From Patellaria atrata CBS 101060 (taxonomy: Eukaryota): 64,000 nt of DNA. The first letter of the stretch is position 1. Each line of letters opens with the position of its first letter. The position numbers and the translations under genes were made by a program. Location of the stretch: assembly GCA_010093705.1 (NCBI GenBank), contig MU006103.1, forward strand, positions 531,121 through 595,120. Direction: 5' to 3'. Positions 22,327 through 51,136 of the stretch are shown piece by piece. The notes below the pieces were generated by a model. That model worked only from the letters and a program-made list of their open reading frames with translations, did not search any database and was not told the DNA's origin.

Positions 22327-23044
22327 TCCTGTTAGTAGTGTTTAGGTTCATTACTCCTAGCTATAGTTGCGGCAATACCTAAAATACATGAACTACAGAA
22401 TATCAAATACTGTATATCGATACTAGTAGATCACCCTTCCCTTTGATAAACTAACTGGGCGACGGAAAAGACACCACATCATTATCTTTAACATTGCCGT
22501 CTCTGACACCATCTTTCATATCGCCGTCTCTGATACCACTAGCTTTGATATTGCCTCTTTAACATCAACATCACCTCTTTCATATACGTCTTTCGCACCA
22601 CTATCTTCAACATCACTATCTTGACATCGCCTCTTTGACATTACCATCTTCAACATCGATGTCTCCAACATCACAAGGAAGGTAGTCCTATAATACGATG
22701 TGGTGGAGCCCTTGGGAGCCTTGTGACAATTATTGTGGAGGATATTTAGAGGTACAGTACAGCGCAAAACCTCAAAGCTCACAGCAGATCAAAGTTGGGT
22801 AATAGAAGAGAATCTCGATTTTCTCTTATCTCCTTAAGCTTCCTATTTTAAGTAACCGAGTATTGTAGCACGGTACTTCACTAACTCCTTTCTACCTTAT
22901 TCTCCATTCTTTGACAATAGCTCCGTCGTAACTACTTCCTCCGTAATATTGACGTCTCATATGGGACCATCAGCAATACCGCTGGGGTGAGCATCAACCG
23001 ACATCATTGTACACCAATACGTTAGAGACATACATCAGTCGTAA

Positions 23045-26000
23045 CTACGCCCATATCTTCTTGAACTTGTCATCGAATTCCTCCTGCAACAATATGAACG
23101 CCCTTAGTACGTTAAGCAACCCCTTATCGACATCAAAGGCTTCCCAATCCTTAGAATCACCGTCATCTTTAGATTTCAATAGGCCGCTGTCCGTCTGGTC
23201 CTTCTCACTAGTGGGCTCTAAGTACTTGTCTATCACTTTGTCGTCTTCCCGTTCTTCATGCGCATCGCCACTGCCCATTAAACCTCCCATATCCATATCG
23301 GTCTGAGGGCAGCCCTTGGTGAAGTTGGTCAAGTTCGTGACGATAGTGGCGAGCACAAGGGAAAAGTCTAAGCCTGTATTAAGGACAGTAGTGATATACT
23401 AGATGTTAATGACTTACGATTTAGATAGAACTAAACGTCAGATGAGCGAATCATATTTGCCACCTCAAGCGCCTTAATGTCTCCGTGCTTGTAGAAATCA
23501 TAGAGATAAGCGTTGAGCGGCTCTCTTGGATAGATTGGTAAATGAGGCACTACCTGCTTCACACTCATAGTCCATCTTCGACACCTTTTCATTATCCTTA
23601 TCATCATCGTCTTCCCGTTTCCCCTTCTTCTTGATAGTCTTGGTGACTTTGGCACGAGCTCGTATCACCTCATTCTCTTTTGACCATTTTTCAAATTCCG
23701 TAACCTTCTTCCCTCAGGTGGTATTAGATTGTTTCCATAATTTTTCCTTCTTCTCTAATTCGTCCATCACCGTTGCCGCTAACTCTTCACACATACGGCG
23801 GTCATAGTTGAAGACGATTGCGGGAAGGGCATCCTTAGATTGCAAGTCGGTAAGAATTGAGTGTATCGTGGAAAGGAGATTATCTGCGTCTACTTCTCTG
23901 TTTTCGCATTTGAGATTGCAGTTGTGCTTGGTGGCAAAAGCACTCCGCCGGATAGTCTGGTTAAGATCTTTGCCCAATTTTTGCCGTACACTCTTGATTG
24001 AGGAAGTTAGGTCAGCCATCTACTGTACAAGGATAGATTTCAGATCAGCCTCCCACTTGAAAATATCAATCTTCTTGATAACATTGGAAAGTAGCTCATT
24101 GGGATCAAGTGATGCAGGAAGTGGGTGCTCGTCAGTCGTATATTTGACCATATAGTGCCAAAGACGTAAACAGTCCCTAGCTTCTAGGCTCAAATCGTCA
24201 GGGATGTCGCGAGGCTTGTTGGTCAAGCACGCAACAGGATGGACAAAGGCAAAAGCATCCATTCCATCCAGACCGGGTGTGTGGATGAGGGGATGACCTG
24301 GCAAACCAGAGAAGCAAAAGACTTTCGGAGGTACATAAATGAAACTTCTGTAGGTCTGAGTACCGATGATGTTAAACAGTGACAATCTTGTTACCATTTG
24401 CTTCTCGAGTTGAGCCGAGCCAATCACTGAACTCCTGCGGATATCCAACAGTAGTAGAGAGTGAAATTATGGGAGAAGATGCTTGGGGTAACAACTGTTC
24501 CCAAATAATACCATCATCAGCCTGCCTATTGCAGTGGATTTCGTCGAAAATGATCCGCTTAATTCTACATGACCAAGAAGACGTCTTGTTGGCATTGGAT
24601 GAGGCAAATCACATAATCTGGAGAACATGAGGGAGAATCACAAGTATCTGAGAGCCAGTGGGATTGTTGATGCAAAAATCCCGAGTATGAATACCCCAGA
24701 TCGAGCGACCGGGATGTCTGAAGGCCTTTGAAAATCGAGCCTGAATCTCGGCTGCAATTGGATTTAGTAGAGCCTTGGTGGGTGCTACACATATAGCGAC
24801 ATTATCGTCGGAAGCTTGAAGAATTTTCTTCATTGCATAAAAAGAGATGAATGTCTTGCCGGAACTAGTGGGTGCAACGACAATTAGACTCTCCTCTTTA
24901 TCAATGGCATCGAGAACCTTGCGCTGCCACGCATCTGGGGGAAAAGGTACACGAAAATTTGGTGTAGAGTCGATGGCTCAATCGAGGTACGGTCTGCAAT
25001 GCTCTAGTTGAAAGATCTTTGGGCCGCTGTTTATGGACAAACCGCCATACTTTTGAGTCAGAATATTCACATTCATGTAGGAAAAAGCCAGAGTTCTATC
25101 CGAACAGTTGTTCTGAAACGTAACCTCAAGAAGCTCGAGTGCTTTGGAAATCGTTTGCAATGCTGCAATAATCGTCACCGTCATTCCTACTTCAACCTTG
25201 GAGAGACGAAGATGAGCACCCCAAATCAAAGCCGAAATATCTAATCTAGGGCTAGTATCCTTGCTTTTGTTGCTGTCAGTCCAGATCCGAAGTAAGCAGT
25301 CGATCATGAACAGCTCTATTTCTTGCCTTCGGAGACCACTCATGTCCAGGTTTTGGATATAGGTGCGCGCCAAGGTGTAGCGAAGTTCGACGTTAGGGTT
25401 GGACATGATCTGTTTGTACTTGGATTTCTAGAACGCGGTATCTATATCCGCTTTCGGTCGCTCTCGTTGGACCTTGAGGTTAGCTGCAGCTTCTAACGCG
25501 GCGGCCTTGCCACCTTTCTTCGTAGGATTTCTAGGCTTTTTACAGCCATTCGAAGATGTTTCATTTGCTTGCTTTTGTGCCTTGGTTGACTTGATTTTGT
25601 GCACTATCTTCGTAGATCTAGAGGCTTGAGAGCTCTGTCCAGCAATGATGGTCTCCGGCTCAAGAACCTTGCCGGCTGCATTTGTCAGACTCGCACCATA
25701 AGCTTGCATCTCAACTATGAACAACTGATTTCTTCGACGCGCAAACCATCCCATATGCGTTAGAGAAGCCCGTGGTCTAAAGGCCTTGGTATGGTTATGC
25801 TAGTGTGAAAGCTCTTGAAAGACTTCGGATTCGCCGAAGTTTGAATGAGTGGATGGCTCATCGTCGGTCAGGAGATGAATAGGGGCAAGATGTTGGTTAA
25901 ATACTAGATTTCTGAATGGAAGAACTACTTGTTCACATGGCCCCAGTGGTGAGGGAATCATGGGAATGCTCGTCGTATCCGCGGGTACCGAGGCCGCTGG

Positions 26001-27350
26001 ATTGCTTACGATCTGTTGGCTACTAAGCTGTGAAAGTGCCGCACAGAGTTCCTCGTACTTCACCTTGAGCGGTATGATTCTCAAAAGTGCGAGGGAAAAC
26101 TCACTTTACGCATGAATATGATGAATGGAAATTCGTTAACTAGATCAACAAGGTCGCATGGACGGCATTGACTGTCAAGCTTTTCGATTAACGCGCAATG
26201 GTGGAGAAGATACGTTGCTGTATGTGCGATTTCAGCAATAAGATGCTGCATATCAGCTGTACCGTCCAGCGTCCGTACTCCACAGTTTTCAAACAAGAGG
26301 AATTTTAACGCGCTAGTGTGTAAGAGGAACGTTGAAGCTTCCTCGGTTGATATCTGACCATCTTTAATCGGATTTCGGAGCGCCAGTAGCGTCACCACGT
26401 CGCGTTCGGAAAGAGTGTCTAGCTGCGTCAAGTCGTCCAAGCTGTAGGGGCTAGGTAAGTGATATTCAATAGCGGGTTTGATAGTGTGAAGTGCGTAGAA
26501 GTCTTGAGCATCTTACAACCGTGAAAACTCCATGACAACAGTCAAAGCTGTAGCAAATGTTAGTTTAGGCGAAGACGTGAAAGGTTTCGGTGGGAATTGT
26601 TTTAGGAGCTGGGGGCCTGATATAGTTAGGTTATCTTTGTGTCTTTGAATTGTAATTCGTTGACCATAGCAACATTGTACTGGTTCGAGATGAACCAGGA
26701 GATCATTGCCCGTAGGTTGAGTTGGAGCGACAGTAAGATTGCGTTGAAGAAATCGTTGGATTTGCCGTAGGCTTCAGCTTCGATAGCGCTTCTCAGAATA
26801 GTTTTTTTGCCAATCCTTTTCTTCGTGCTTCTCAGAGCTGGTAGCGGCACCATCATGACACATGACGAAATAAGTACCAGTATCTTTTAGGTGAGTCATA
26901 AAGGCGGCGTCGGTAATTGAACTGAACCGTCGAATGCTGATGCTGGAACTGAGCTTGCATTGCAGGTGGCGTATGATGACCGAACGTGCCAGGAGACACT
27001 TTGAGTGATTTTTGAGCTCAGTTGCACGTGAATACAAAGTTTCTCGTTCTGATGAAAGCAGACGAGGTTAAAGTTGCATTTGGGGGAGACGAGATTTCAG
27101 ACCAGGTTTTCAACAAGGTAGACTGCGTGAAGGAGTTGAAATCCATCTGTCCAATACATCAGCAGAGGAACATCTTGACGGAATCCAGATGAGGTCGAGC
27201 AGTTTACTCACCATGGAAATTAAGCCGTGGGTCGGAGAAGCAGTGAAGAAGTAATGAGTCGGGCTCGATAAGGAACAGTTCACTTCCCGCGTAGTCCCCA
27301 AAAAGATCTACTCGTCTCGCAAAAAGCGAGCGATACCACTGAAGAATGGC
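23045..27350 (-). pseudogene. DDX60/Ski2-like DExH RNA helicase pseudogene
   Basis: PDAWQRKVLD, Walker A VAPTSSGKT (about 24852-24876), VAPTKAL, Walker B IIFDEIH (about 24534-24555), LPAIVFNYDR, LNAYLYDFYKHG, LQEEFDDKFKKIWA*. Broken into more than 10 short ORFs by stops and frameshifts. Confidence 0.85.
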
Positions 27351-27582
27351 CTCTTTAGAAACCAGGGCAGTGATTTAAGAAAGACTCGGATTGCGTGGTA
27401 GGTTGAGAGAAATATAGTGATGAAGTTTGTGTTCGAGGGACAAATCTGAGTTCTACTGTCCCAGAGGTTCAAGACAAGACAGATCAAGCTACCGTGGTAA
27501 GTGCAATGCTATCAAATCTTCATCAATTGTAGATGCGTAGGTATGGAGTGTTACCGTGAGTACAAGTAAGGTAACATGTTTA

Positions 27583-27623: not shown

Positions 27624-27673
27624 CCACCCCATAAACCTATACTGTTACTTCAAAATTCAATATCTCCATCAAT

Positions 27674-29548
27674 ATGGTAGCTATTGACCTCGCTCTTGAT
27701 GATCTGAATAGCCAATCAGTACCTAATATCAGCCATACTGCTAAAAAGTTTGGTGTTGACCGTACTACGTTGTCGCGTCGATGGAGAGGTATAACCCGTT
27801 CTATGGATACGGCGTACAAGAGGAGAGAATTCCTCAACGAATCCCAGTCCAAATTCCTTATTAAATATATTAACAGAGTCTCTGCGCAAGGCTTAGCGCC
27901 TACTCCATTAATGGTACGGACCTGGGCAGCAGAGATTGCTAAGAAAGAGCCGTCAGCTAAATGGCCAAGCCGCTGGATCAAGCGAAATTCAAAATGTTTG
28001 AAATCTGGATATCTCTCAGGGCTAGATAAATCCAGGAAAAATTCAGAATCTGCCTTCTACTACGCGCTATACTTTGAGCTATTAGCTCGTAAAATAGAGC
28101 AGTATAGGGTTAAAATCCCTAATATATGGAACATGGACGAGAAGGGCTTTCTAATGGGTATACTGCAAAAGCAACGTCGTTACTTCTCTAAAGCATACTA
28201 CGAAACAGGGGCTCTGAAGCACGTACTTCAAGATGGTAGTAGATCGTGGATAACGTGTCTTGCTGCTATCTGTGCTGACGGTAGGCACCTGGATCCAATG
28301 CTGATTTACGAGGCGGTTAGTGGAGATATTCAGGATACGTGGATACAAGACTATAACGAAAATATCCATAAATGCTCTTTTGCTTCCTCTCCAACTGGCT
28401 GGACGAATAACGAGCTCGGATATCAGTGGCTAACACGAGTCTTTGAGCCGTATACTAGACCCACAAGCGATAGAGAGTGGAGAGTTTTAATACTTGATGG
28501 GCACGGATCTCACGTCACAATGAAATTCATTGATTTTGCGTTAAGTCATAGAATCCTGCTGGCTGTTTTTCCTCCGCATTCAACTCACCGTTTACAACCT
28601 CTTGACGTCTCATTATTTGCTCCCCTGGCTCAGTACTATAGTCAGGAGTTGGACATATTCATACACGACTCTGAGGGCCTTTGTAGCGTTACAAAGCGAG
28701 ACTTCTTCCGTCTATTTTGGCCTTCTTTTCAGAAGGCTTTTGCGGAGAAAAATGTACTTTCAGGATTCCGGAAAACAGGATTATCTCCCTTTAATCCTAC
28801 TATTATTTTAGGCGAACTTGACTTCAAAATACCTAGTGAAGATAGTAGACTAGGCTCAGAAGATTCAGTATCTTCAGAAGTATCTCTAACTGATTGGCGG
28901 AAGATAGAGAGGCTTCTAAAGGTTACCTATCGTGACTTTTCTGATAAGGAGACTCAACGTTTAGATGATATCATCCTACAGATCACTTCCGAGATTTCAG
29001 TGCTTCGTGGCCGAGTTGACGGACTTAGACGAGCTCTACAGAATGAGATAAAGAAGCGCAAGCGTCAGAAGCCAGCATTTAAGACTACTGGTCTTAAAGA
29101 GGAGGGTTATGCTCAAGTATTTACCCCGTCAAAAGTAGCATTAGCAAAACAGCTCTTAGCTAAACAAGACACTGAAAAGGAGCGCCAACAGGCTCAAAAA
29201 TACCAGGCTATACTTAAAAGGCAGCAAAAGAACCAGGAGAAGAAAGTACTGCTTGCTGCTCGTCAAAAAGCGAGAGAAGAGAGTAAAAAACAACGTGAGA
29301 CGGAGGTATTAGTAAAGGTATCAGCTCGAGAGCGTGCTACTGAGGCTCGTCAGGCTCAACAACAGCTTATTGGCGATATCAGACAGTCACGGCTACGCAA
29401 TAAGGTATCAAAAGGTGTATTTACTACCACTCAACAGAAGGAAGTTGTTGTTCTATCTCCATTAAAAGTTCAGGATAGTGGTGAAGGTAGTTCTCGTCCA
29501 AAACGCACGCGCAAAGCACCAGCACGATTTTTAGATTTTGAAACATAG
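27674..29548 (+). CDS. Fot1/pogo DD35D transposase, 624 aa
   Basis: N-terminal HTH (AKKFGVDRTTLSRRW), WNMDEKGF, LILDGHGSH, then 35 residues to LQPLDV; uninterrupted ORF. Confidence 0.96.
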   Translation: MVAIDLALDDLNSQSVPNISHTAKKFGVDRTTLSRRWRGITRSMDTAYKRREFLNESQSKFLIKYINRVSAQGLAPTPLMVRTWAAEIAKKEPSAKWPSRWIKRNSKCLKSGYLSGLDKSRKNSESAFYYALYFELLARKIEQYRVKIPNIWNMDEKGFLMGILQKQRRYFSKAYYETGALKHVLQDGSRSWITCLAAICADGRHLDPMLIYEAVSGDIQDTWIQDYNENIHKCSFASSPTGWTNNELGYQWLTRVFEPYTRPTSDREWRVLILDGHGSHVTMKFIDFALSHRILLAVFPPHSTHRLQPLDVSLFAPLAQYYSQELDIFIHDSEGLCSVTKRDFFRLFWPSFQKAFAEKNVLSGFRKTGLSPFNPTIILGELDFKIPSEDSRLGSEDSVSSEVSLTDWRKIERLLKVTYRDFSDKETQRLDDIILQITSEISVLRGRVDGLRRALQNEIKKRKRQKPAFKTTGLKEEGYAQVFTPSKVALAKQLLAKQDTEKERQQAQKYQAILKRQQKNQEKKVLLAARQKAREESKKQRETEVLVKVSARERATEARQAQQQLIGDIRQSRLRNKVSKGVFTTTQQKEVVVLSPLKVQDSGEGSSRPKRTRKAPARFLDFET

Positions 29549-29660
29549 ATAGATCTATTTCTTACTATCTAAATAACTATTCTACCAAATTTGAATATAA
29601 ACGGACTTATGGTTGTTGAGATATTCGTAATTCAAAAGCCATACTGTTGGTGGTGATCAC

Positions 29661-29701
29661 CGTGCACGGAGTGTCTCTGTGCACGGAGTGTCCAAGACTT
29701 C
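29661..29701 (-). repeat. Right TIR of the Fot1-like element
   Basis: Exact reverse complement of 27583-27623, followed by TA. Confidence 0.97.
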
Positions 29702-31419
29702 TACCTGAACATACAGTGACGCCAGAACAATTATTGGGCTTGTTCCCCACGTACGCCAGAGCACCCCCACGTCCTTGACCCGGCCCGACTTAGTTCCAAA
29801 TCGGCATCGGTAGAACTACTCAGAAGATATCCTTTTATACAACCCAAACTTAAATTAAATCATCAACAAACAAATGATCTAACATCTTTCTCTACTCTCT
29901 ATACCTACTGATCATCTTGTACGTTATGCTCTTGATGATGTTGTGAAAAATCTTTCTGTATATTTTGGCCTCGAGAGAGGTCATACTATAGTCTCAGCTT
30001 CCGTCGTCGGATCCGATATGAGTAATAGAAGCACCTAAAACACTTAATTGCTCGCAGATGCAATCCAAAATGAAAGCCATCGTTAAGAAAATCTCGCCCA
30101 TCTTCATCGCTCAAACGCCCGATCCGGGATTGCGAGCCCATCTTAGAAATGAGACCTCTTAGGCCCGTCTCTGGGATCACCGTACAACGAACGGTTACTT
30201 GCTTTGCACAAACTTCCGGTCCGATAGCAAGATCATATGCACGGCAGTCCTAGTCATGAAAATCGGGGTAGAGGATAAAGCAAACGAAGGAAACGCGCAT
30301 ACACCTCTCACTCTAAAAGAAACATATGTTTCGTAAGTAAGTGAGTCTATTGTCGACCTTTGCACCCTCTGGCGAACAACGCTGTAGAATTCGTGTGAAG
30401 ATAATTTACAGCGACGAGACCATGATGGCCAGCTTTATCATTAGCGTAAGAGAGGGTCCAGCTCAAATTTGCCGTTTTCCACTGTGCGGGGAGAAAAGGG
30501 AAGTACAAATACTGTATAATATGAAAATAAGTACCACCCCCTCCTCTAGGAGAGAAGGTACCCAATCTAGAGATGTTGTATTCCATAAATTGCATCGCGT
30601 GGCATATCTAATCGCGTGATCAGACTTTAGCCTTAAAAGAGAAACGAAGGAGTTTGCAATAAGCATACTGAGAGCTGTCGGGGCACGACAGTGCAAGGTT
30701 GGGTTGGGTTCTCCCTTAGAACAGAATAGAGGGGAGTGATACACTTCGAAATCCACTTCCGCTACACTTCAAAACAAGAGGAATAGCTCAAGCTGCTTTA
30801 TTCGGGCCTTTTCATTCTACGCCCCCGTACTGTAAAGCCGGGTTCTGAGTGTAGGCTGAGAATAACATCGTCGATATGCTTGCCTAGCTCTTCCACCTAT
30901 ATGTCGGCATTATCTACTATGATCTTATACGCCCCAGGTTTGTTGGAACTGTCAAGACCTGAATGGGTCGGGAGAAAGAGTGATACGGAGAAAGGGAGCA
31001 ACGCTTTCGAGGCGGGAAGCGAACCAATACAGATTAGAAAGCTTTCGGAGCGGGGGCCTTTCCCCATCACTAAGAGTTAGTACGAAGGGAAGGTATATGG
31101 TGAAAGATGTTCGGGTTGTTATATGAGGACAATAATGGGATAGAATGTAGTTCTACGGAGAACTCGATGTTATCAACCCGAAAAACCACCGCCTTGGCAA
31201 TGACGTACGGAGTACTCAGCAACAGGCTCTTTCCTTGATATCTTCTAATATTTTGATATATTAACGAACAAAAGATCCGGTGTCATCTATCTAACTCCTT
31301 GACCAAACCCCGACGCCGTGTGTATCCAAACAAAGGAAGACATTGTAATGGAATTGTCTATTAGAACTAGGGAATAGAGATCAAATGCAGTGCACCTCCT
31401 TCACAGAACATAAACCCCT

Positions 31420-34400
31420 CTAAATCTTAACGAACGCCTCCGGAGATTTCGCCATTTCGCCCAAACAATTCTTATACCAATCTAGAGCCTCTTGTGCTTT
31501 ACTCTTCGTTATTGCGCGCTCATCAAAGGTGAATTGCGCGACATATTCTCCCTTTGTCGCGGTCTTCCGAATTTCAAGCTGGATCGCATAATTGAAATAC
31601 ATCTTATTCTTGTTCATCTTCATCACAATCCAACGCATTGGATCAGGTTCTCCGCTCGACGGTTCGAATGGTTGGAAGCAGAAGAGACATTTTGACCCTT
31701 CAGAGCGATTGCGACCCAATGCTTGGTATATCTCTCCGAGCGACACTAGGCCGTTTTCCGAGGACTCCCAGAAATCAGCCTGTGTTTGGCTGAGAATTGC
31801 TTTGACAGATGTGTCCGTCGATATCTGGCTTCGAAAAGGCAGGAAATTGGCGCATGTGCCAGTGATGAGTTGCTGCACAGAGACATTAGGGCTAGTAATA
31901 AGTTAAGGGGAGAGGAGAATTTACCGGGTTGTCTATTGGGACATTGCGTCCCGAAATGAGATTGTCATACATAACATCTCGCGATCTACTTAGATGTGCA
32001 AGAAGGAGGCTGAATGCAGTTTGGAAGACGATCGGTGCTGTTACGCCGGCCACCTCCGCCAAGTCGTCCAGTCCAACTTCAACGTCAATTTTACCACTCA
32101 GACCACTGGAGATTTTGGGTTCCAGAGTAGTTGAAAGGAAGTCAAATTTATAACCTCCAAGAACATCTTTCCAGTAGTCGAGTTGAGGCTGCTTCTTTGT
32201 CGTAGAGATATAGTTGATGAAGTCCTTGAAAGGTGTCTGTTGTGGCAATGGAAGATTGTGGTTAAGAGCGACGAACTGGTCATCGAAGATGTACAAGAGC
32301 GATCCATCATACGACGCATGATCCAGCTTGATTACCAAGTCTCGTGTTCCATCTTCCGAATGCTCTAGCAGCATGTATCGAACGAAAGGCTTACCCGCTT
32401 CAAAGGTGGCTTCCCAATCGGCATCTAGGATTTGTTGTCTCTCTTCCTCGGAGCTGTACGACCGGTACGTCAGATTCAACACGGGATGCTTGAGAACGAC
32501 TTGGATAGCAGTTAAGGGATTGTTTTCTTCCAGGTAGAGGTAGAGTGCTCGCAGGATTTGATTGTTCTTGGTCAACTTCGTGGTGAGGTATATCCAACGA
32601 TCGAAGTCGAAACCAGCCGGTAGTCTTCGTACTGTATGAAGTTGCCAGAACTGGTCCTTCTTGATTCCCTGAGACAAGAATTCGATTTGGCCCGCGGTAC
32701 AGGGATATATGTCTTCTACGTCTTTCTTGAAGATGTTCAGTTCGGAAAGTCGCGCGTAGACTTCCGATGGCGGTTCATAGACAATTGGTTCTGCCGAAAG
32801 GACTGATTCCATTTCTCCTTGAAAATTTTTTTTCAAGAATGGTGTCTGTTCTCGAAGTGATGGGTTGGAAAGAATTTCCGAGACTGTGATTTGGTATCCA
32901 TGTCGTCGAGCTGTGCTAGTTAAATTGATGGCCGAGATTGAGTCACCCCCAATTCCGTGGAACGTGGAGTTTGCATGGATCTCCTCCAGTGGGACGTTTA
33001 AAGTGGATGCCCATAGATTTTGAAGTACACGCTCTGGCCCTGTACTGATTTCGACTACTTCAGCCTCACCCAAATACTCCTTCAGCAAGCTCTCATCCAT
33101 ATTTTCAACGAATGCAAGCAATTCCTTTTTGTTTGCTTTGCCAGAAACCGACAAGGGCATCTTTGATACCGGGAACCAAACGGTGGGTATCATATAAGAG
33201 GAGAGGGTTGTCAACTTCTCCGCAACCGCCTTCCAGTCCGGTGCTTCCTCTGGTGGAAGCAGCAAGCTTGTCTCATTAGCCGTTTGGCTCGTACTAGAAC
33301 CCAGGCAAAATGCAACCAGTTGCTTCTTCTTCATGACGGTCCCTACGACTACCGCACATTGACTGAAGTCATTTGTTTGCATGATGACACTTTCGACCTC
33401 ACCAAGCTCAATTCTGTACCCGTTCAACTTGATCTGATCATCTTTGCGGCCGAATAGCTCTATTTCGCCGTTGGGAAGCCATCTTGCAAGATCTCCAGTC
33501 TGATATATTCTGGTGCCGTCGGCTTGGGTATGGAACACCTTAGCCGTCGCCTCCGGACGATTAAGGTAACCCCGAGCAATTTGTGGTCCTCCTACACAAA
33601 GTTCTCCAACATCACCGTGTGGGATTTGCTCCATTGTTTCAGGGTCTAGAATCGCAGCAGTCACTGTCTTAAAAGCTCTTCCGATATTTCGCAAGTTGTG
33701 TTCAGGGGTCACCGTAATTCCAGTAACACAAATAGTTGCTTCAGTGGGACCGTAAAGACTGTAAACGGTCATTGCTCGTGCCCAAATATCTGGGATGAAT
33801 GGGGGGACAGGCTCCCCACCGATGCAGAGTACTTTCAGGGTGGGGATTTCTTCTGGAGAAAGAAGGCTTGCCATTGTAGGCGTGATACTGGCTTCCGTTG
33901 CCTTCATAGAATTAATCAGGCTTCCTAGGTTGGCTACCATAGCGTCTTGTGGAGCCATACAGAGAGTTCCACCAACCGACAGAACGGCAAAGAAAGCGTG
34001 GAAGGACCCATCGAAAACGTAGTTCAACGCCCAAAGACATCGCCATGATGCGGTAACGTTCGTTGACTCAACAATTCCCTGGGTGGCTGCTGCAAGTCCC
34101 TCGTGTGGCAAAAGCGTACCCTTGGGCTTTCCAGTACTACCGCTGGTGTAGACGATATATACGAGTGATTCCGGAGTCACTTCTGGTGCTAAGCATCGCT
34201 GAATTGGTATGCTGTGCCACTGAACATCTTCGATCACAATAACTTCATAATCCACACCTTCAAAAAATTTGCTGTTAGCCTTGTCTGTAATGGAAATCTT
34301 GGCACCGACGTCTTCGATGATGCCTGAATTTCTCTCTCTAGGATTCTTCCCATCAAGGGTCACGAAAGCTCCTCCAGAAATCATGACTCCGAGCATTACG

Positions 34401-37400
34401 ACCGCTGTGTTGATCGATTTGTCAAGCATGACTGGGACGACTTGTTCAGCACGAACTCCTTTCTTTCGCAGCAAAGTTGCCAATTGGTTTGCTTTGATAG
34501 ACAAGCCTGCGTATGTTATACTGTTACCAGAAGCCTCTTGGATAGCGATGTTGGACGGATATACAACAGCCATTCTTTGGATTTCGACGTGGACCATTTC
34601 GTATGTAAGCACAGACTCCGGTGGTTCGAAAAAGCCTTTCCCAGATTCTTGAGCCACGCTCACCGTTATACCGGTGCTCGACAATTCATCATTTCGCTCC
34701 ACGTTGACGTATGAATCTCCATCATCACTTGATGCGGAACTGGATGCAGGCGTAAATCTGTCGTTATCATCATTCTCAGAAGGTGACGCGGATGCGGTGC
34801 TCGAAATCCTTGAGATATCTTTGGTCTCATTATTCAACGGACAGTCAACGGCTGGAGGAGAGTTACGTTGTGCAGGCCCTTGGTGAGATGAGACTCCGAA
34901 GCTTTCCAAAACTCGAGCCACCGAATTCACCAAATTCTGCGATACAGATGATTGAAGTGTTGAGGATAAAACGACTTCGTTTAGTGATCCATTGTTGAGT
35001 TCAACCTTCACATTCTCATTTCGCTCGAGGCTAGCTTCTGGAAGTATAACTAGGCCACCAGCTTGTTGCGTTTGAGGGGCCTTGATCAAGAAGTTCACTG
35101 CTGTATCGAAAATATCCCTTGGTTGTTTGCTCGCCTTGAGAATGTTTCGCATACCATAGAGAGCGTGTCGAGTAACCTTCCAGAGTGTAGCCTGGACATG
35201 CGCAGCAATCGATTCTAAGGACAGTTCTCGATTGATAATTATTCGCAAAGGTGCCATTGTGAGTGCTGGTCCAGCCATTTGCATAATCCCTGAAACAGGT
35301 GCGTCTCTTCCAGAAAGTGTTATCCCAAAGATGATATCATCATTTGAGGAACTATCAGCGAGAACGATTGCCCAGGCAGTATAGAGAAGAACGGCGGGTG
35401 TAACCTTGAGCTTGGATGCTGTGCTCTTTAAGTCAACCTCAACCCTTGCGGTTACAGTATTCTCCGGCGCCATCCTAGACCCAAGCCTGCTAGGAATGGC
35501 ACCAGCGAGATAGCTTTGCCAGAAATCGTGCATGGCCTCTTGATCCTGCCGATGAAGATACTGGACATATCTATTGAAGGGCGTTCGTTGAATCGGTTTT
35601 CCGCCTGTCAGAATAGATGTAATATCTTGGGGTATAAAGGCGTTGGACCAATAATCAAATAATGCATGGTGAACAGTGATCACAAGAATGTCTTCAGGTA
35701 AAGTTATTACTTTCCACCATAAACCCCCGAAAGCCATCGACTCCGGATCTTGCTTCAGATAAACCTTCAGGTTCTTGTTGACAACTTCCCAAGGGACATC
35801 TACTGATTTTTTTACGACTTGCAAGTAAGAATGGCCGTGTGCCACAAATGTTGTGCGGAGAAGAGGTTGGGTTTTTATCAAGGTTTGTAAAGCTTCTTTG
35901 ACCGAGCTTACGCTATGTCCTTTGAAACTGTATGCTCGCCTGTAGATGAAGTCTACGCCACCCATGACCGCATTTGTGATCACACCCTCTTGAAATGGTG
36001 TAACGGGGAACACGTCTTCGATATCAGAGCTCTTGAGGCCGAGATCTTCAACATGGAAGTTTTCTTGCATTAATCCGAAAGGGCCGATACCGACATTACT
36101 TTCGAATTCCTCATGAGGTTTGACCTGGATAAGAGCGGCAACCTGAGCGAGAGAACCACCTAAGATGACATCTTCAACCCGAAGAGTTAAAGAGTATTCG
36201 GAATGTAGTTTGGAAGCAATCTGAACCGCTTCTAATGATGATCCACCCAGAGCTATAAAAGAGTCCTCAAGAAGGATATCAGACTCCTGGACGGGTAAGA
36301 ACTCCGACCAAACCTTTCTCACTATCCTTTCGTTATCGTTGAGATCATCCTCATTCGCTTCGCCTCTTGATCCAGGGGGGAGAAGTCGCCCGTAAAGAGC
36401 CAACGACTCAACCTTCTTTCGAATAGCTGCAATATCGACTTTTTGGTTGAGGTTGAGGGGCAAGGAAGAGGCCGGAACCCAGAAGCTGGGAACCATATAT
36501 AATGGCAGCTTATCACCAATGGCTGACCGGAGCTCGTCAACAATTGAATTCCAGTCGCTGCCAGCACGACTGACAATCATTGCAACGAGAACTGTCTTCT
36601 TTCCAACTACAGTTGAGACGACGGCAGATTGCTCCACTTCCTTGTGAGATTGAATGATCGCGTTTGGCTCTGCGGGATCAACCTTCTGGCCATTGATCTT
36701 GACTTGGTAATCTATTCTACCGATCATTTCAATTGATCCATCGGCATGACGAACAGCCAAATCGCCTGTACGGTACAATCTTCCACGACCAAATGGGTTC
36801 TTAATGAATCGCTTTTTCGTCTCCTCTGAATTGTTCAAATACTCTTTGGCCAGTTGAGATCCACCAAAGCAAAGCTCACCCGGAATGAGAAGTGGTGAGA
36901 GGTTGGTAGTTTCTGGTGTAAGGATATACGTAGTCGTTGTATCAAAAGCCTGTCCAAGGAAACGAGCTTGGGAAGCGTTCACCAGACGACGACGAGCATT
37001 GAGCTGCGTACATTCGCTAAGCCCATATGAGCTGAGAAGTTCGACTCGAAGTCCCCACATCTCGACTAAAGCAGGACTAGGCATCTCCCCTCCCAAAGCT
37101 AGTCGCCGAAGAGAAGGTGTAGTTTCTGGCGAGATCAGGAATGCTGTGGTGGATGTCATTTCAATGGAATTGATGTTCATCGAAGCTATCGTTTCGGCTG
37201 TGTGAACTGTCAAGTTCTTCTTGCTGGCCAAGCACAAGCAGCCGCCCGTGCACAAAGGGGCCCAGATGGACCTTTGCGCCGCTGAAAATACTGGATTGAA
37301 GAAAAGAAGCTGACGACGATCGTGAGACTTTGGGAAAGCCACCAGACCGTTGAACGCAGCATTGTGATCAAGCACCGCTGCCTTGGGCTTCCCTGTCGAG

Positions 37401-39248
37401 CCGGAGGTGAAGATTATATAGGCCGAATCGGTTGGCTCCTGGTCTAGAGCAAGGTCGGATCCATCATTATGCTTTGAGAGCTCGAGCAAATCTTCAATAG
37501 GAGTCTCGTTCTCAAAGAGACCAGCCGTGCTGTTGTCCACCAGGATATGGGTTGCCTCGACCGTTTTAATAATGAGACGGTTGCGGTCGGCGGGAGCCTC
37601 TGGATCCAAGATCACGTATGCTGCCCCCGCTTTAAGGATTGCAAGGAGAGTAAGTATCAGTTCAGAAGTCGTGCGCATTAGTACCGGTACAACTAAGCCT
37701 CTATGCTGTCGGATTTGGCGCGCGAGCTGATTCGCTCTCTTATTGAACGTGGAATACGAGAGCGGTTCATCAGATTCAAACTGAACTGCGCTCAAATCAG
37801 GCGTTAACCTTGCTTGCTGTTCAATTAGGTTGTGAAGAAGACCTCGTTGAGGCTTGAATGCTGCCTTCCCAGACTGGAGAATGAAGTCTGTTTCGCTCGG
37901 TAAAAACATTTGAATATCTGAAATGCGGCATTTTGGGTTTTCGACCATGTATTCCAAAGCTGCCACAAAATGCTTCATTAGTGCTTGAGCATCACATGCA
38001 GGGACGGATGAATTGTGTCGCAGGCTGAATTTCAGCTGTGTGGCAATAGAGATATTGAGAACCACTATCACTTGTAGTCAGTCTCGCGTCCTTGTTTTTT
38101 TTTTTTTCGGTTTTTCGGTTGAAGAGCAGCAACTTACAAGCAAAATCATCATCGTCAGTCATCACGTCGTAGCCATCATCGGTAAATCCGATTGAAACCT
38201 TTATTTGCGGTTGTTTGTAGTTGGCAGCCTCCAAAATTTGCTTATAGCCGATAAAAGCGTTGCAAGACGCCTCAGCTGTCACGTCCCTGACATGACCAAT
38301 CCAAGCAAGGGTATCTGTATTGTCTGGTATGGACAACATCAGTGGAAACTTTTGGTCAACCAGTCCGATCACCGATTCATGCTTGAAGAACGTTCTATCT
38401 CGACTCTCAACTACAAAGCATGCGTTCCGTTGACCATTGAGCCTATGCCTATCGGCAACGATAGCCCATGCAGCGTATAACAAGTCATGGGCCCGCATAT
38501 CGAAAGTTTCCATGAACTCCAACATTTCGCCGAGTAGTTCATCGCATGCAGTGACTACTGTCTCAACTCTGGGAGACTGGTGCACCTGAGGAAATGAATA
38601 GAGTGATGATGGCTCCTCACCCTCAGGGAATAGCTTTTTCCAATAATTTTGGGCTCCTTGTATGTCTTTCGTGGAGATGTGCTTAACATAAGCGGCCATT
38701 GACTGATTTGGCTCTAAAGGATATCCATTGAAGCAGAGAAAAAATTTCCTTTGAAGTAAAGCCAGTGAGGTTTTGTCAATCAGGGCTGGGTGTATGTATA
38801 GCACGACAACGGTTTCGCCATCCTCGGCCACTACTTCAAGCAGCCCGCCCTCACGGGAATGTGGCCTAGTAGAAAGGTATTTGATGGGATTTGCGGCTGG
38901 ATGGATTACCTGAGAGTAAACACCGTCTTCAGAGGTCTGGATTCGAGTACGCAACACCGGAGTATTCCGAGCTATGGTCTGCCAAGTGGAGGCTATTCTC
39001 TCGATCGTTTGATTAGAAGTATCTGGTATCTTAAGTAGGACAATTGAGGTAACTGCATCCTGATTTTCCCTGCAAATGGCTTCTTGTTGTGCTAATAAAT
39101 GGACGTTCTCATTGAAGGCGAATTTAGATTTAATGTCAGAGACTTTATCTTGAAGTGCTTTCCGTCCCAGTTTGGATGTTTTTGTTCGAAAAGAAGAGGT
39201 TATCGAAACTGGTTCTTGGCAGGTCGGTTCATCAATGAAAGGGGCCAT
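31420..39248 (-). CDS. Bimodular nonribosomal peptide synthetase, C*-A-T-C-A-T-C, about 2569 aa
   Basis: Exons 39248-38138, 38070-31925 and 31872-31420. A3 motifs FTSGSTGKPK and YTSGSTGKPKG; YRTGDL and YQTGDL; T domains LGGSSL and IGGDSI; C motifs IHPALID, HHALFD and DHASYDG. Confidence 0.93.
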
Positions 39249-41392: not shown

Positions 41393-42545
41393 ATGAGTTC
41401 AATTATTCAAATTGGAAAAAAAGTTACCAGCCCTCTTGGTTTCCAGAAAGGGTACAATGTCATCCTTTGTAAGTGAGAAGTACTCGACGCTTTCCTCAAG
41501 ACATGCTGACTCCGTAGTCATTATTTTTGGAGGAGCGCTGATGGGGTTTGCCCTGGCCCGATTCCAGTTCCTGTCTTTCAAGGGTGTTTTTTGCAAACCT
41601 CTCTCGACCCTAGGGGCTGCTCCAGGAGAATGTTACTGGTATAAGCAAGATCTCTACAAAGCCGGAATTCTACTCCATCTCGGTTGCATGCTCCCAGCTT
41701 CCTTTCTGGCCGCCTTCCAGTTCGTTCCATCCATTAGACACCACCTCTTGATTTTCCACCGTATGAATGGATACATCATCATTCTTTTAACATTGGTCGG
41801 TAACGCTGGTGCTATCATTATCGCACGCCATGTCTTTGGGGGTACTGTTGCTACTCAAACTCTTGTTGGCACTTTATTTCTCATGTCAACATTTGGCATC
41901 CTAAACGCCTACTACAACATCAAATGTCTCCAAATAGACCAACACCGCGCATGGATGCTGCGCACATTTGCTTGGATGGGATCTATTATTACCGCTCGTG
42001 TAATCCTTATTACTATGATCCATGCCATCAGTTCCCTTCCCGCGGGCTACAACTTCTACGATAACCGCTCCTGTGATGAACTGATCTCCATCGCCGGTCC
42101 CGATCCCGTTTACGCTTTCTATCCCGAGTGCGTACCCGGATTCTCAAACAGCACAACTGCTGGCCGTGTTATCCTTCGTGCAACATGGAATTCCGACAAT
42201 CCGTTCGAAAAAGTAGCAGTGGCTGGTCTGAGTTTCCCCGCTACCGTATGGCTTTCCCTCGCTCTCCATGTTCTCGGCATCGAGTTGTACCTTGCTTTCA
42301 CGCCGAGGGAGGGGCAGAGGCTTCGCCAAATCTCCTACGAGAGACAACTTGCGCGCGGCATGAAGAATCCTGGAAGCGCAGGTCTCGTCCCCGAGAAGTT
42401 CGCGGATGCGGATCCTTGGGTTCCCAAACTCGAAGATAGAGAGATTCAAAAAAATAAAGAATCTTCCTCAAGATCGAGTGGAGATGACTTTGCGAACATT
42501 GAGAGGAGTATTACTGATTCTGTTAGGATTTATGCTACAGCTTAA
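41393..42545 (+). CDS. DUF2306-type predicted membrane protein (1 intron)
   Basis: PLGFQKGYN, APGECYWY, His-bearing TM motifs (LHL..LPA, FHRMNGY, QIDQHRAWMLR, ALHVLGIELYL), LRQISYERQL. Confidence 0.8.
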
Positions 42546-43795: not shown

Positions 43796-44470
43796 ATGTC
43801 CACCGTCGCAAACCCAAAAAACCCTCCAGTCTTTGTGGGAATTGCCGCCCCTCCCCCTGCTGGCAAACAAGCTATTGCTTGCCTCGACCCCAACAACTGT
43901 CCTGCCACTCATGAGGCTTGTGGTAAAGTCCTGAACTTTTTCCCCTTTCGCCGCAACATCTTCGAGTTACTCGCACGCTCTTCCGGATCATTTCCTCACC
44001 TCATGCGAACACTTGGCTCAATCTTCAATGGGGCCGAGCGAACAATCCCACTTCTTGACTGGCAGCTCATTGTTTTGCGGGTCGCAGGAAGTTTGGACGC
44101 GGCATATGAGTTCGACGTTAACGAGCCCGTTGCGAGAGTCTACGAAATGGGTGATGATAAGATCCAAGCGTTGAAGGACGGACTTAACACCGAGGACATT
44201 CTCAAGATGGGAATCTGGAGTGAGAGACAGCAATGTATCATTACGCTTGTGGATGAGAGTTTGGCGACATATACCAATAAGGAGAGTACAATCGAGTGGG
44301 CGAAGAAATTGATGACTGAGGATGAGGTCGTTGAGTGCTTTATCGTGCTAGGATTGTACGCAATGATCGCTAGAATCACCAGAGGGTTGAGAGTTCAGAT
44401 AGATCCGGAGATTCCTGGTTTGGACGGATTTATCAGAAAGGGGGTCACGAAGAATGCTAGGGATCCTTAA
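43796..44470 (+). CDS. AhpD/carboxymuconolactone-decarboxylase-like protein
   Basis: NIFELLARS, WQLIVLRVA.....YEF, SERQQCII.LVDE, EVVE...VLGLY.MIARI pattern typical of AhpD-like helical proteins. Confidence 0.75.
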   Translation: MSTVANPKNPPVFVGIAAPPPAGKQAIACLDPNNCPATHEACGKVLNFFPFRRNIFELLARSSGSFPHLMRTLGSIFNGAERTIPLLDWQLIVLRVAGSLDAAYEFDVNEPVARVYEMGDDKIQALKDGLNTEDILKMGIWSERQQCIITLVDESLATYTNKESTIEWAKKLMTEDEVVECFIVLGLYAMIARITRGLRVQIDPEIPGLDGFIRKGVTKNARDP

Positions 44471-49261: not shown

Positions 49262-51136
49262 TTAAGGAAGCGAGCCACTGGTCATCCAGTAAGTAACATA
49301 ATTGAACCCTTGCGCATCAAGGTACGGGCTAAGATTAATCATCTTGCCTCCGGCAATTGCTGTAAATTCGAGGTTATCGCTACTACTGCGTTTCAAAGTT
49401 GATAGTGAGAGCGTTGGGTTAGAGTTAACGGTCGAACTACCATAGTTTCCAACTATGACAACTGGACCATATGCTACTGCTGTAAGGGATTTGTTATCGT
49501 TGGTCGGGAGTAAACGGAAGTTCATGGGTAACTGCACGGTGACTGTGTCTCCCGAAGTCCAAGAGCGTGAGATGCTTGCATATGACCCCGAGGTAGTGAT
49601 TACGCCCGAATCTTGGCCATTGATTGATATTTTTGCCCCTGATGTCCATGACGGAATACGGATGTGCATATTCCAATCACCGGTCCCGTTGACCTTCAAC
49701 GTGGTGGTGTCGCTGTTTGGAAATGTTGTGGTTTGCGTTAAGGTAACTGAACGTTGCGACCAGTCCAACATTGAAGGTGTGAAAAGATTGACATACACGG
49801 ATGATTCGTCGTGAAAGTAAATCGAATCCATGAGTTTGGTGTTTGTCTCGATACCAGTGCCCTGGCAACACCAGAAAGAGTTGTAATCAGTGCTATATGT
49901 GCCTCCACCCCATGCAGGACCAACACCGCGCCGTGCTCCTGGTTGAAGTGAGTGGAAATAAGTGACATGTCCGTGATGATCAGCTGGGTTCTGCTGCCCG
50001 ATCATTTGGTTGGTGATGACACGCTCGTAATAGTCGAAGTATGTGGTGCTGGATGGATCCATGACCCAGAGCTCACGAGTGAGTTTGAGCATGTTGTATG
50101 AGTTGCAAGATTCAGCCGTGTCTTTGTTGAGGTAGTTTGCAATGGCATTAGGGGCACGAAAGTGCTCAGCCTGGCTATTTCCTCCAATTGCATATGTGTG
50201 CGCGGTGGTAGTGATCTCCCAAGCGTTTTTAGCAATGTTTTGGTAGGTAGTGTTGCCGGTTGCTTTGAATGCTCTTGCAGCGCCGATCCACTTGGGCACC
50301 TGTGTATTTGCATGCAGACCGTTCAGTTGGTCTCGTCCGTTTGCTAGGGGATCAAGCACAGCTGAGTGGTGGAACCTTTGCGCCACTGTGAGCCAGCGCT
50401 CATCACCGGTTTGGAAGTAGATATCTGATAGGACTTCGCTCATACCTCCAAACTCCGTTCCTAAGATCTTTTGCATCTGCTGGTTGTTGAATTTGCTAGT
50501 CCGGCCATCCACCCAACCGGCCATAGCTAGAAGTACCGTTTTCGCGTTTGTATCCCCGATATTGCGCCATACATTGAGCAAACCTGCCATGGTCTTGTGG
50601 ATTGCGTAATATGGAACGTTGCTGTTGCTCAACCTACCCTGTTCGAGAGCTGTGATATCGGATTCTGGAAATCCAGAGAGGTAACCGGTGGAAAATCCGG
50701 CTGCAGGGTTGTTGGCCTGGCATTTGAGCAATTCTGCAGTGAAAGCCGTGGCTCGGTCGCGGCAAATCGTGTCGCGAAGCTGCGCGTAACACTGTGCCCA
50801 AGCTGTAAGAAAATGTCCTTGGAAGTGACTGCGGAATGGGAAGTCGGGGGCATCCCAACCGCCATTTGCTTGAGCTCCATTAGTGGATAGTCTATGGTTC
50901 GAGCGGAAGACGTAGAGAAGACGATTGATATCGACGAATTTCAGGTACGCTAACGTGCGGTCCTGGTTCTGTTGCCAACGACCACTGTTCAGTATCACCT
51001 GGCTAATGTCGAATGGGTAGGCCTTGATTCCAGAATCCTCTTTGACAGGCGGTACAATCTGACCAATTACGGGTTGAAGTAAAAGAAAGAGACTAGAAAC
51101 CAGTACTATGATGCCTTTATGGATGCAAAACATCAT
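49262..51136 (-). CDS. Secreted GH127/GH146-like (DUF1680) beta-L-arabinofuranosidase-like hydrolase, intronless
   Basis: Signal peptide; GGWDAP..FRSH..GHFL, HANTQVPK, GGNSQAEHF, ESCNSYNMLKL, FWCCQGTG. Confidence 0.9.
   Translation of the reverse strand: MMFCIHKGIIVLVSSLFLLLQPVIGQIVPPVKEDSGIKAYPFDISQVILNSGRWQQNQDRTLAYLKFVDINRLLYVFRSNHRLSTNGAQANGGWDAPDFPFRSHFQGHFLTAWAQCYAQLRDTICRDRATAFTAELLKCQANNPAAGFSTGYLSGFPESDITALEQGRLSNSNVPYYAIHKTMAGLLNVWRNIGDTNAKTVLLAMAGWVDGRTSKFNNQQMQKILGTEFGGMSEVLSDIYFQTGDERWLTVAQRFHHSAVLDPLANGRDQLNGLHANTQVPKWIGAARAFKATGNTTYQNIAKNAWEITTTAHTYAIGGNSQAEHFRAPNAIANYLNKDTAESCNSYNMLKLTRELWVMDPSSTTYFDYYERVITNQMIGQQNPADHHGHVTYFHSLQPGARRGVGPAWGGGTYSTDYNSFWCCQGTGIETNTKLMDSIYFHDESSVYVNLFTPSMLDWSQRSVTLTQTTTFPNSDTTTLKVNGTGDWNMHIRIPSWTSGAKISINGQDSGVITTSGSYASISRSWTSGDTVTVQLPMNFRLLPTNDNKSLTAVAYGPVVIVGNYGSSTVNSNPTLSLSTLKRSSSDNLEFTAIAGGKMINLSPYLDAQGFNYVTYWMTSGSLP

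What the first reader, a model, noticed from the sequence alone, without database searches (positions are those of the whole stretch)
36380..37830. First adenylation domain lacks the amino-binding Asp and has Arg in the pocket: likely a dicarboxylic-acid starter
Seen: the A4 motif reads NPVFSAAQRSIW instead of FDxS, while A2 keeps YVFDGS. Manual alignment to GrsA gives approximate codes S-A-R-E-A-G-S-Q-L-K for A1 and D-G-H-S-C-G-L-I-C-K for A2. Known: Asp235 binds the substrate alpha-amino group, and bimodular fungal NRPSs such as SidE (fumarylalanine) load a non-amino acid first. Inferred: A1 activates fumarate, succinate or a similar diacid, or a side-chain carboxyl, with Arg binding the distal carboxylate.
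Basis: partly seen in the sequence, partly recalled or inferred. Interest (0 to 1): 0.7.

Follow-up and report, generated by a model that had tools for sequence, protein, structure and literature searches.

The report
Fungal fumarate-loading peptide synthetase cluster
This fungal enzyme most likely joins fumaric acid to an amino acid, as its studied relatives in Aspergillus do, so the odd binding pocket belongs to a known family; less expected is that two small uncharacterised enzyme genes next to it accompany such synthetases across many fungi.

Summary
The pocket is a family signature, not a one-off: 118 of 119 homologous A1 domains carry it, against 0 of 412 background A domains. The gene (C*-A-T-C-A-T-CT, 2567 aa) is 54% identical to A. 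fumigatus NRPS7/PesH, the synthetase of the ftp (fumaric acid amide) cluster. A1 and A2 both fall beside NRPS7 in the tree. A1 most likely loads fumarate (about 0.75; some diacid about 0.88). The product would be an N-fumaryl amino acid or its azlactone; the A2 substrate is open. SidE itself was not retrieved and the primary papers were not readable. The added finding is the neighbourhood. A cysteine-free AhpD/CMD-fold gene and an Etr1-like enoyl reductase gene flank such synthetases in 10 and 9 of 11 informative metagenome locus groups, and fused forms exist. There is no FtpM- or FtpR-like gene in the window. Verdict: new member of a known kind, interest 0.35.

The parts
31420..39248 (-). NRPS gene, C*-A1-T1-C1-A2-T2-CT, 2567 aa; exons 38138-39248, 31925-38064, 31420-31872; GT-AG introns 38065-38137 and 31873-31924
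   Evidence: Pfam; open spliced frame and intron ends; homologs P0023, P0031 and P0037 align from 39248. No RNA confirmation.
38138..39248 (-). N-terminal condensation-like domain (C*), probably not catalytic
   Evidence: Pfam Condensation E 2e-13; motif Asp conserved in 32 of 32 covering rows, His at the catalytic column in only 9 of 32
36410..37846 (-). A1, the domain of the finding; predicted fumarate (diacid) activating
   Evidence: model pLDDT 87.7 matches NRPS A domains incl. 1AMU, TM 0.76
37283..37285 (-). Ser at position 235, in place of the amino-binding Asp
37271..37273 (-). Arg239, proposed counter-ion of the distal carboxylate
   Evidence: 118 of 119 homologs; role inferred
37004..37006 (-). 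Gln330, third family-invariant pocket residue
   Evidence: 119 of 119 homologs
36440..36445 (-). Catalytic Lys517, preceded by Gln where 117 of 119 homologs have Gly
36236..36238 (-). T1 phosphopantetheine Ser
35666..35668 (-). C1 catalytic His (intact HHxxxD motif)
33098..34600 (-). A2, alpha-amino-acid type (Asp235); code not shared with any of 111 homologous A2 domains, substrate open
32939..32941 (-). T2 phosphopantetheine Ser
32318..32320 (-). His of the terminal CT domain (xHxxxD), proposed release or cyclisation
   Evidence: role by analogy with AlSidE
41397..42545 (+). DUF2306 membrane protein; not conserved beside relatives
   Evidence: no match in 29 loci
43796..44470 (+). AhpD/CMD-fold protein, 224 aa, no redox cysteines; conserved partner gene of this NRPS family
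   Evidence: one match in the own genome
44722..45858 (-). Etr1-like MDR enoyl reductase, tail-to-tail with the AhpD/CMD-fold gene; conserved partner gene
   Evidence: a 33% paralog lies on contig C1
46833..48775 (+). MFS efflux-type transporter (several exons, 3' end not mapped)
   Evidence: homologs in 5 of 11 informative locus groups, other MFS genes in three more

Best explanation
The gene is a bimodular fungal NRPS of the FtpA/SidE family. A1 adenylates one carboxyl of fumaric acid: no alpha-amino group has to be bound, so Ser replaces Asp235, and Arg239 (helped by Gln330 and the acidic residue at 278) holds the second carboxylate. Fumaryl passes to T1. A2 loads an L-amino acid on T2; its identity is open, an aromatic or hydrophobic residue being likeliest by kinship with FtpA. 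C1 forms the amide. CT releases the N-fumaryl amino acid, possibly as a reactive azlactone that hydrolyses, as shown for AlSidE. The MFS protein exports the product, and the AhpD/CMD-fold protein and the enoyl reductase act on the enoyl product or protect the cell from it. Shown: sequence anatomy, residues, clade, gene linkage. Inferred: substrate, contact roles, release mode, partner functions.
For: Pocket signature in 118 of 119 homologs against 0 of 412 background domains. A1 is 59% and A2 57% identical to A. fumigatus NRPS7, the whole protein 54% over 2343 positions. The A1 code differs from NRPS7 only at 278 (Glu for Asp) and 299 (Ala for Val). A1 and A2 each branch as sister to the 17-row group holding NRPS7 (support 96 and 98, FastTree). 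NRPS7 = pesH = AFUA_3G15270 (PMC6737921; PMC3689640 supplement), which lies in the ftpR cluster cited to Kalb 2015 on fumaric acid amides (PMC13068945). [quoted passage not shown] Fumaryl-L-tyrosine is the FtpM substrate (PMC9307002). A3, A7, A8, Lys517, both T serines and the C1 motif are intact.
Against: No assay. The SidE and FtpA primary papers were not held, so FtpA's measured preference for fumarate is recalled, and equating FtpA with NRPS7 is inferred from cluster tables. SidE was not retrieved. The exact code of the window A1 is shared by none of 119 homologs. A1 departs at 9 of 129 conserved columns (median 3; 15 of 119 homologs have 9 or more), including Gln before Lys517. PlmJ A1 with Ser235 activates Met. 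Labelled fumarate did not enter the fumaryl chain of sorbicillactone A (PMC10894215).
Confidence: 0.75

Rival explanations
1. A1 loads a different C4-C5 diacid (succinate, maleate, mesaconate or citraconate), perhaps supplied by the AhpD/CMD-fold enzyme.
For: Glu278 with Ala299 is unique among 119 homologs, and positions 278, 299, 301 and 322 vary across the family. The partner has five invariant Arg, as expected for carboxylate binding. Negative fumarate feeding in sorbicillactone A.
Against: Both changes are conservative and each occurs singly in the family (Glu278 in 7, Ala299 in 3 of 119). The gene sits next to the NRPS7 clade. AlSidE makes its fumaryl products in vitro.
Confidence: 0.13
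2. A1 is degenerate or skipped, and the gene is a decaying copy.
For: 9 departures at conserved columns, including Gly516Gln and an invariant Leu changed to Phe. A skipped Ser235 module is described for PlmJ.
Against: Frame open over 2567 aa. Catalytic motifs and the whole pocket signature are kept. Non-Gly residues occur at 516 in 20 of 412 background domains. The partner genes are intact.
Confidence: 0.06
3. A1 activates an alpha-amino acid, or an acidic amino acid through its side-chain carboxyl, despite Ser235.
For: PlmJ A1 has Ser235 and activates Met. McyG lacks Asp235 and activates Phe (PMC11253843).
Against: The PlmJ A1 code has neither Arg239 nor Gln330. The clade's characterised members make fumaryl amides.
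Confidence: 0.05

Closest known systems
A. fumigatus NRPS7/PesH (AFUA_3G15270), the synthetase of the ftp cluster, inferred to be FtpA; P0024
   Same: Bimodular with an N-terminal C-like part; A1 59%, A2 57%, whole 54% identical; 8 of 10 A1 code positions; sister placement in both domain trees; an AhpD/CMD-fold homolog (55%) three accession numbers away in strain A1163.
   Different: Glu278 and Ala299 in A1; A2 code differs at 239, 278, 299 and 322; longer C* (443 against about 277 residues before A1); no methyltransferase or Zn2Cys6 regulator detected in the window; an enoyl reductase lies in the window's cluster but none is listed in the rows seen for the A. fumigatus cluster.
SidE / AlSidE (AFUA_3G03350): fumarylalanine and fumarylazlactone synthetase
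   Same: A-T-C-A-T-CT core; Ser for Asp235 in A1 per PMC10549243; SidE and PesH A domains fall in the same group in PMC6737921.
   Different: SidE has no N-terminal C domain in the topology given and loads alanine. Its sequence was not retrieved, so identity and code were not compared.
PlmJ A1 (penilumamide NRPS)
   Same: Ser at code position 235.
   Different: Activates Met, has no Arg239 or Gln330, and its module appears to be skipped.
AhpD / carboxymuconolactone decarboxylase fold proteins (for the neighbour gene)
   Same: Fold: Foldseek probability 1.0 to 2OYO, 6K40, 2PRR (TM 0.63-0.65); Atlas clusters named CMD-like.
   Different: 13-17% identity; the Cys-x-x-Cys and His seen in 2GMY are replaced; no invariant Cys in 77 homologs.

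Membership tests
FtpA/SidE-type fumarate-loading bimodular NRPS | Ser in place of Asp235 in A1 | tested here: met
   feature stated in PMC10549243
FtpA/SidE-type fumarate-loading bimodular NRPS | A1 groups with the A1 of A. fumigatus NRPS7/PesH | tested here: met
   50-row A1 clade with support 100; window sister to the group holding P0024 (96). 48 of 119 homologs were used.
FtpA/SidE-type fumarate-loading bimodular NRPS | A-T-C-A-T-CT core with an amino-acid type A2 (Asp235) | tested here: met
FtpA/SidE-type fumarate-loading bimodular NRPS | Catalytically competent A1 | tested here: inconclusive
   core motifs intact, but 9 of 129 conserved columns differ, including Gly516Gln
FtpA/SidE-type fumarate-loading bimodular NRPS | Direct sequence kinship with SidE itself | tested here: inconclusive
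   A. fumigatus SidE was not identified among the listed hits
FtpA/SidE-type fumarate-loading bimodular NRPS | Measured adenylation of fumarate and a fumaryl amide product | not testable with these tools
   needs an enzyme assay or heterologous expression
ftp gene cluster of A. fumigatus | Carboxyl methyltransferase (FtpM) and Zn2Cys6 regulator (FtpR) beside the NRPS | tested here: not met
   Pfam scans of 26 long and 118 short ORFs of the window; exons under 62 aa would be missed; the rest of the genome was not searched
ChyA-type (anthranilate-loading) bimodular NRPS | A1 kinship with anthranilate-activating domains | not tested
   no ChyA sequence was available from a tool
AhpD peroxidase (neighbour 43796-44470) | Cys-x-x-Cys redox pair | tested here: not met
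Carboxymuconolactone decarboxylase (neighbour 43796-44470) | CMD fold and decarboxylase activity | tested here: inconclusive
   fold met; no Pfam hit at E 0.001; activity not testable

The most novel reading that the evidence does not exclude
Fumaryl amino acids are not the end products of most clusters in this family. The cysteine-free, Arg-rich AhpD-fold protein and the Etr1-like reductase form a dedicated two-enzyme unit, sometimes fused. It either tailors the fumaryl arm (decarboxylation to acryloyl or isomerisation, then reduction) or disarms the electrophilic fumaryl-azlactone as self-protection. This would give a new activity for the AhpD fold and an unrecognised class of fungal acyl-amino acid metabolites. 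The window's cluster, with its unique A2 code, would be a compact test case.
Probability: 0.3. Interest if true: 0.62.

Novelty: new member of a known kind. Interest (0 to 1): 0.35.

Why it matters
The pocket itself adds one more member to a characterised family. The triad Ser235/Arg239/Gln330 is a clean marker for it, spanning ascomycetes and a few basidiomycetes. The larger value is the conserved partner pair. SidE-type enzymes release a reactive azlactone that feeds other pathways non-enzymatically, and how producers control or modify it is open in the papers I could read. A five-gene cluster makes that question directly testable.

Tried and rejected
1) Retrieving SidE with a second homolog search: the list was filled by long bacterial NRPSs, which then served as background. 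2) Reading Kalb 2015 and Steinchen 2013: not held. The supplement of PMC10549243 has no FtpA or fumarate rows. Supplements of PMC11253843 could not be read and may list the codes. 3) One search used wrong indices for positions 299-517; its codes are void and were corrected. 4) The IQ-TREE run did not finish, so only a FastTree tree exists; the C11 paralog and P0121 are long branches of unsure place. 5) Expression: no RNA holder listed. The two runs laid are probably DNA contigs of one sample; they show no differing letter in the NRPS and no joints, which is not independent support and says nothing on introns or expression. 7) DUF2306 and GH127 as cluster members: no match in 29 loci. 8) Pencolide-, versimide- or xylaramide-type products were considered from memory; the search listing showed no link to this NRPS family and those papers were not opened. 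9) Earlier scan notes: nothing relevant. 10) No complex prediction was run, since no binding is claimed.
Full report
Observation. The finding lies in a minus-strand fungal NRPS gene. Pfam gives two A, two T and three C regions over three ORFs. Joining them at two GT-AG introns gives an open frame of 2567 aa from ATG 39248 to 31420, with architecture C*-A1-T1-C1-A2-T2-CT. The public record P0003, named Patellaria atrata, is 100% identical over A1 but starts at 38699; homologs align from 39248. Alignments to LgrA and TycA put a Ser in the Asp235 column. The ten code residues of A1 are Ser235, Ala236, Arg239, Glu278, Ala299, Gly301, Ser322, Gln330, Leu331 and Lys517, and A2 keeps Asp235.

The family. 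A search with A1 listed 120 of 7676 hits, all fungal where named. Leaving out P0003, 118 of 119 first A domains have Ser235, Ala236 and Arg239 (one is gapped) and 119 have Gln330; 111 of 111 second A domains have Asp235. In 412 A domains from the other 104 proteins, mostly bacterial, Asp235 occurs 406 times and Ser235 with Arg239 never. The pocket is therefore an inherited signature. P0024 belongs to a cluster named A. fumigatus 'Nonribosomal peptide synthetase 7'. It is 59% identical in A1, 57% in A2 and 54% over 2343 positions, and its A1 code differs at two positions. In a FastTree tree of 107 domains (48 of the 119 homologs, the window, a paralog, 8 background domains) all A1 domains form one clade (support 100). 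The window's A1 and A2 each branch as sister to the 17 rows that include P0024 (support 96 and 98).

What the literature says. I saw passages of PMC6737921: nrps7 = pesH = AFUA_3G15270, listed as uncharacterised, sidE makes fumarylalanine, and the A domains of both fall in the same group. Passages of PMC13068945 place AFUA_3G15270 in the ftpR cluster, cited to Kalb 2015 on aromatic fumaric acid amides. Passages of PMC9307002 give fumaryl-L-tyrosine as the FtpM substrate. [quoted passage not shown] I read section 7 of PMC11101550 whole: AlSidE (A-T-C-A-T-CT) releases fumarylazlactone, which hydrolyses or reacts non-enzymatically. Passages of PMC10894215 repeat this and note that labelled fumarate did not enter sorbicillactone A. 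Passages of PMC12390756 say SidE most likely needs no other enzymes. I saw supplement rows of PMC3689640 for the AFUA_3G15270 cluster and passages of PMC11253843 for the GrsA code positions and McyG. Passages of PMC12568646, PMC11905612, PMC4551469, PMC10478498, PMC11051388 and bioRxiv 2020.12.01.406157 added little. The two primary papers were not held: the name FtpA for this gene and its measured preference for fumarate are recalled, not read.

Mechanism. Shown: intact A3, A7, A8 and Lys517, both T serines, an HHxxxD motif in C1 and an xHxxxD motif in CT. The model has the A-domain fold (pLDDT 87.7; TM 0.76 to 1AMU). Inferred: A1 adenylates one carboxyl of fumarate while Arg239 holds the other (that position 239 lines the bottom of the pocket is established knowledge, not measured here). 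A2 loads an amino acid, C1 joins them, and CT releases the amide or its azlactone. The A2 code occurs in none of 111 homologs, so the amino acid is open. C* keeps the motif Asp in 32 of 32 covering rows but His in only 9, so it is probably not catalytic. Against full activity, A1 departs at 9 of 129 conserved columns (median 3; 15 of 119 homologs have as many), including Gln before Lys517.

The neighbourhood. Upstream lie DUF2306, an AhpD/CMD-fold gene, an Etr1-like MDR reductase and an MFS transporter. No methyltransferase or Zn2Cys6 gene was found near the NRPS among 26 long and 118 short ORFs; the nearest methyltransferase hit is 18 kb away. A metagenome scan gave 29 loci, which collapse to 17 groups. 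Six have under 2.7 kb upstream, show no partner and are uninformative. Of the other 11, 10 carry the AhpD/CMD-fold gene, 9 the reductase, 8 both and all at least one. In 7 of the 8 with both, the two are tail-to-tail as in the window. The A1 domains there carry Ser235 and Arg239; four groups add a P450. In annotated genomes the AhpD/CMD-fold homolog is one to three tags or accession numbers from the NRPS in 17 pairs that I matched by eye, for example BBP40_010605/010607, Q9216_004999/005001, GJ744_001144/001142, PADG_02837/02836 and A. fumigatus EDP52234/EDP52231. Other pairs were not adjacent by number (A. bombycis 14 apart; Pseudogymnoascus records 9, 21 and 160 apart; a second A. tanneri record 9 apart; P. 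coprophilum non-sequential on one contig; P. flavigenum on another contig), and accession order need not be gene order. For 26 hand-matched pairs plus the window, identity matrices of A1 and the partner correlate (rho 0.83; 0 of 2000 permutations), which species kinship alone could partly give. Two proteins join the partner and the reductase, in both orders (P0471, P0483). P0471 is an annotated gene model and could be a merge; P0483 has several 590-609 aa members from different sources. The partner has the AhpD fold but lacks the Cys pair and has five invariant Arg plus Tyr104 and Asn109 in 77 sequences. It is thus unlikely to be a peroxidase and more likely binds a carboxylate (inference).

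Is the partner pair in print? A search for all of 'carboxymuconolactone decarboxylase', 'enoyl reductase', 'NRPS', 'gene cluster' and 'fungal' gave 0 papers. A search for three of six terms including azlactone, AhpD and CMD gave 2 papers, neither with AhpD or CMD. The library lacks most subscription papers, including the primary ftp, sidE and azlactone papers, so this is weak evidence of novelty. Against a tailoring role: SidE is said to work alone, AlSidE makes its products in vitro, and A. fumigatus has the partner yet reports unmodified fumaryl amides and their esters.

Verdict. Fumarate 0.75, another diacid 0.13, inactive 0.06, amino acid 0.05. Interest is 0.35, most of it from the conserved, apparently unexplained partner genes and the unique A2 code.

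Noticed in passing
L001:4514-7810 (G000:C11, about 415.5-418.8 kb): A second, single-module A-T-C NRPS in the same genome also has Ser235, Arg239 and Gln330; it is a long branch in the A1 clade and has no AhpD/CMD-fold neighbour.
   Followed up: partly
P0471 and P0483: Fused reductase/AhpD-fold proteins in both orders; P0471 (PADG_02837) is next to the family NRPS PADG_02836 and a P450.
   Followed up: partly
L006, L009, L016, L017, upstream of the NRPS: Clusters of NRPS, reductase, AhpD-fold gene, cytochrome P450 and MFS, whose A1 has Glu278 like the window's; an oxidised product is possible.
   Followed up: no
L026:213-9200 (also L023, L024): A second NRPS and a Zn2Cys6 gene lie next to the family NRPS and its AhpD-fold partner.
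   Followed up: no
L028, L030: Loci with the reductase but no AhpD-fold gene within 5-8 kb upstream of the family NRPS, whose A1 has Ser at position 330 instead of Gln in the pairwise alignment.
   Followed up: no
window 38699-39248 and about 34600-34900: The public model P0003 (2318 aa) starts 183 codons later than homology suggests and appears to omit part of the Ser/Asp-rich C1-A2 linker that is open in the window.
   Followed up: partly
window 27635-29704: Pogo/Fot-type DDE transposase with an open 637-aa frame, 1.9 kb downstream of the NRPS; higher contig depth at its right end suggests several copies.
   Followed up: no
window 22400-27500: Multi-exon DEAD-box helicase gene on the minus strand with a weak DDX60 PIN-like hit.
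   Followed up: no
window 49262-51196: GH127 beta-L-arabinofuranosidase-like gene in a single long ORF; not conserved beside related NRPSs.
   Followed up: no
P0062, P0065, P0076: The NRPS family, mostly ascomycete, has members with the same pocket in three basidiomycetes (Rickenella, Amylostereum, Taiwanofungus).
   Followed up: no
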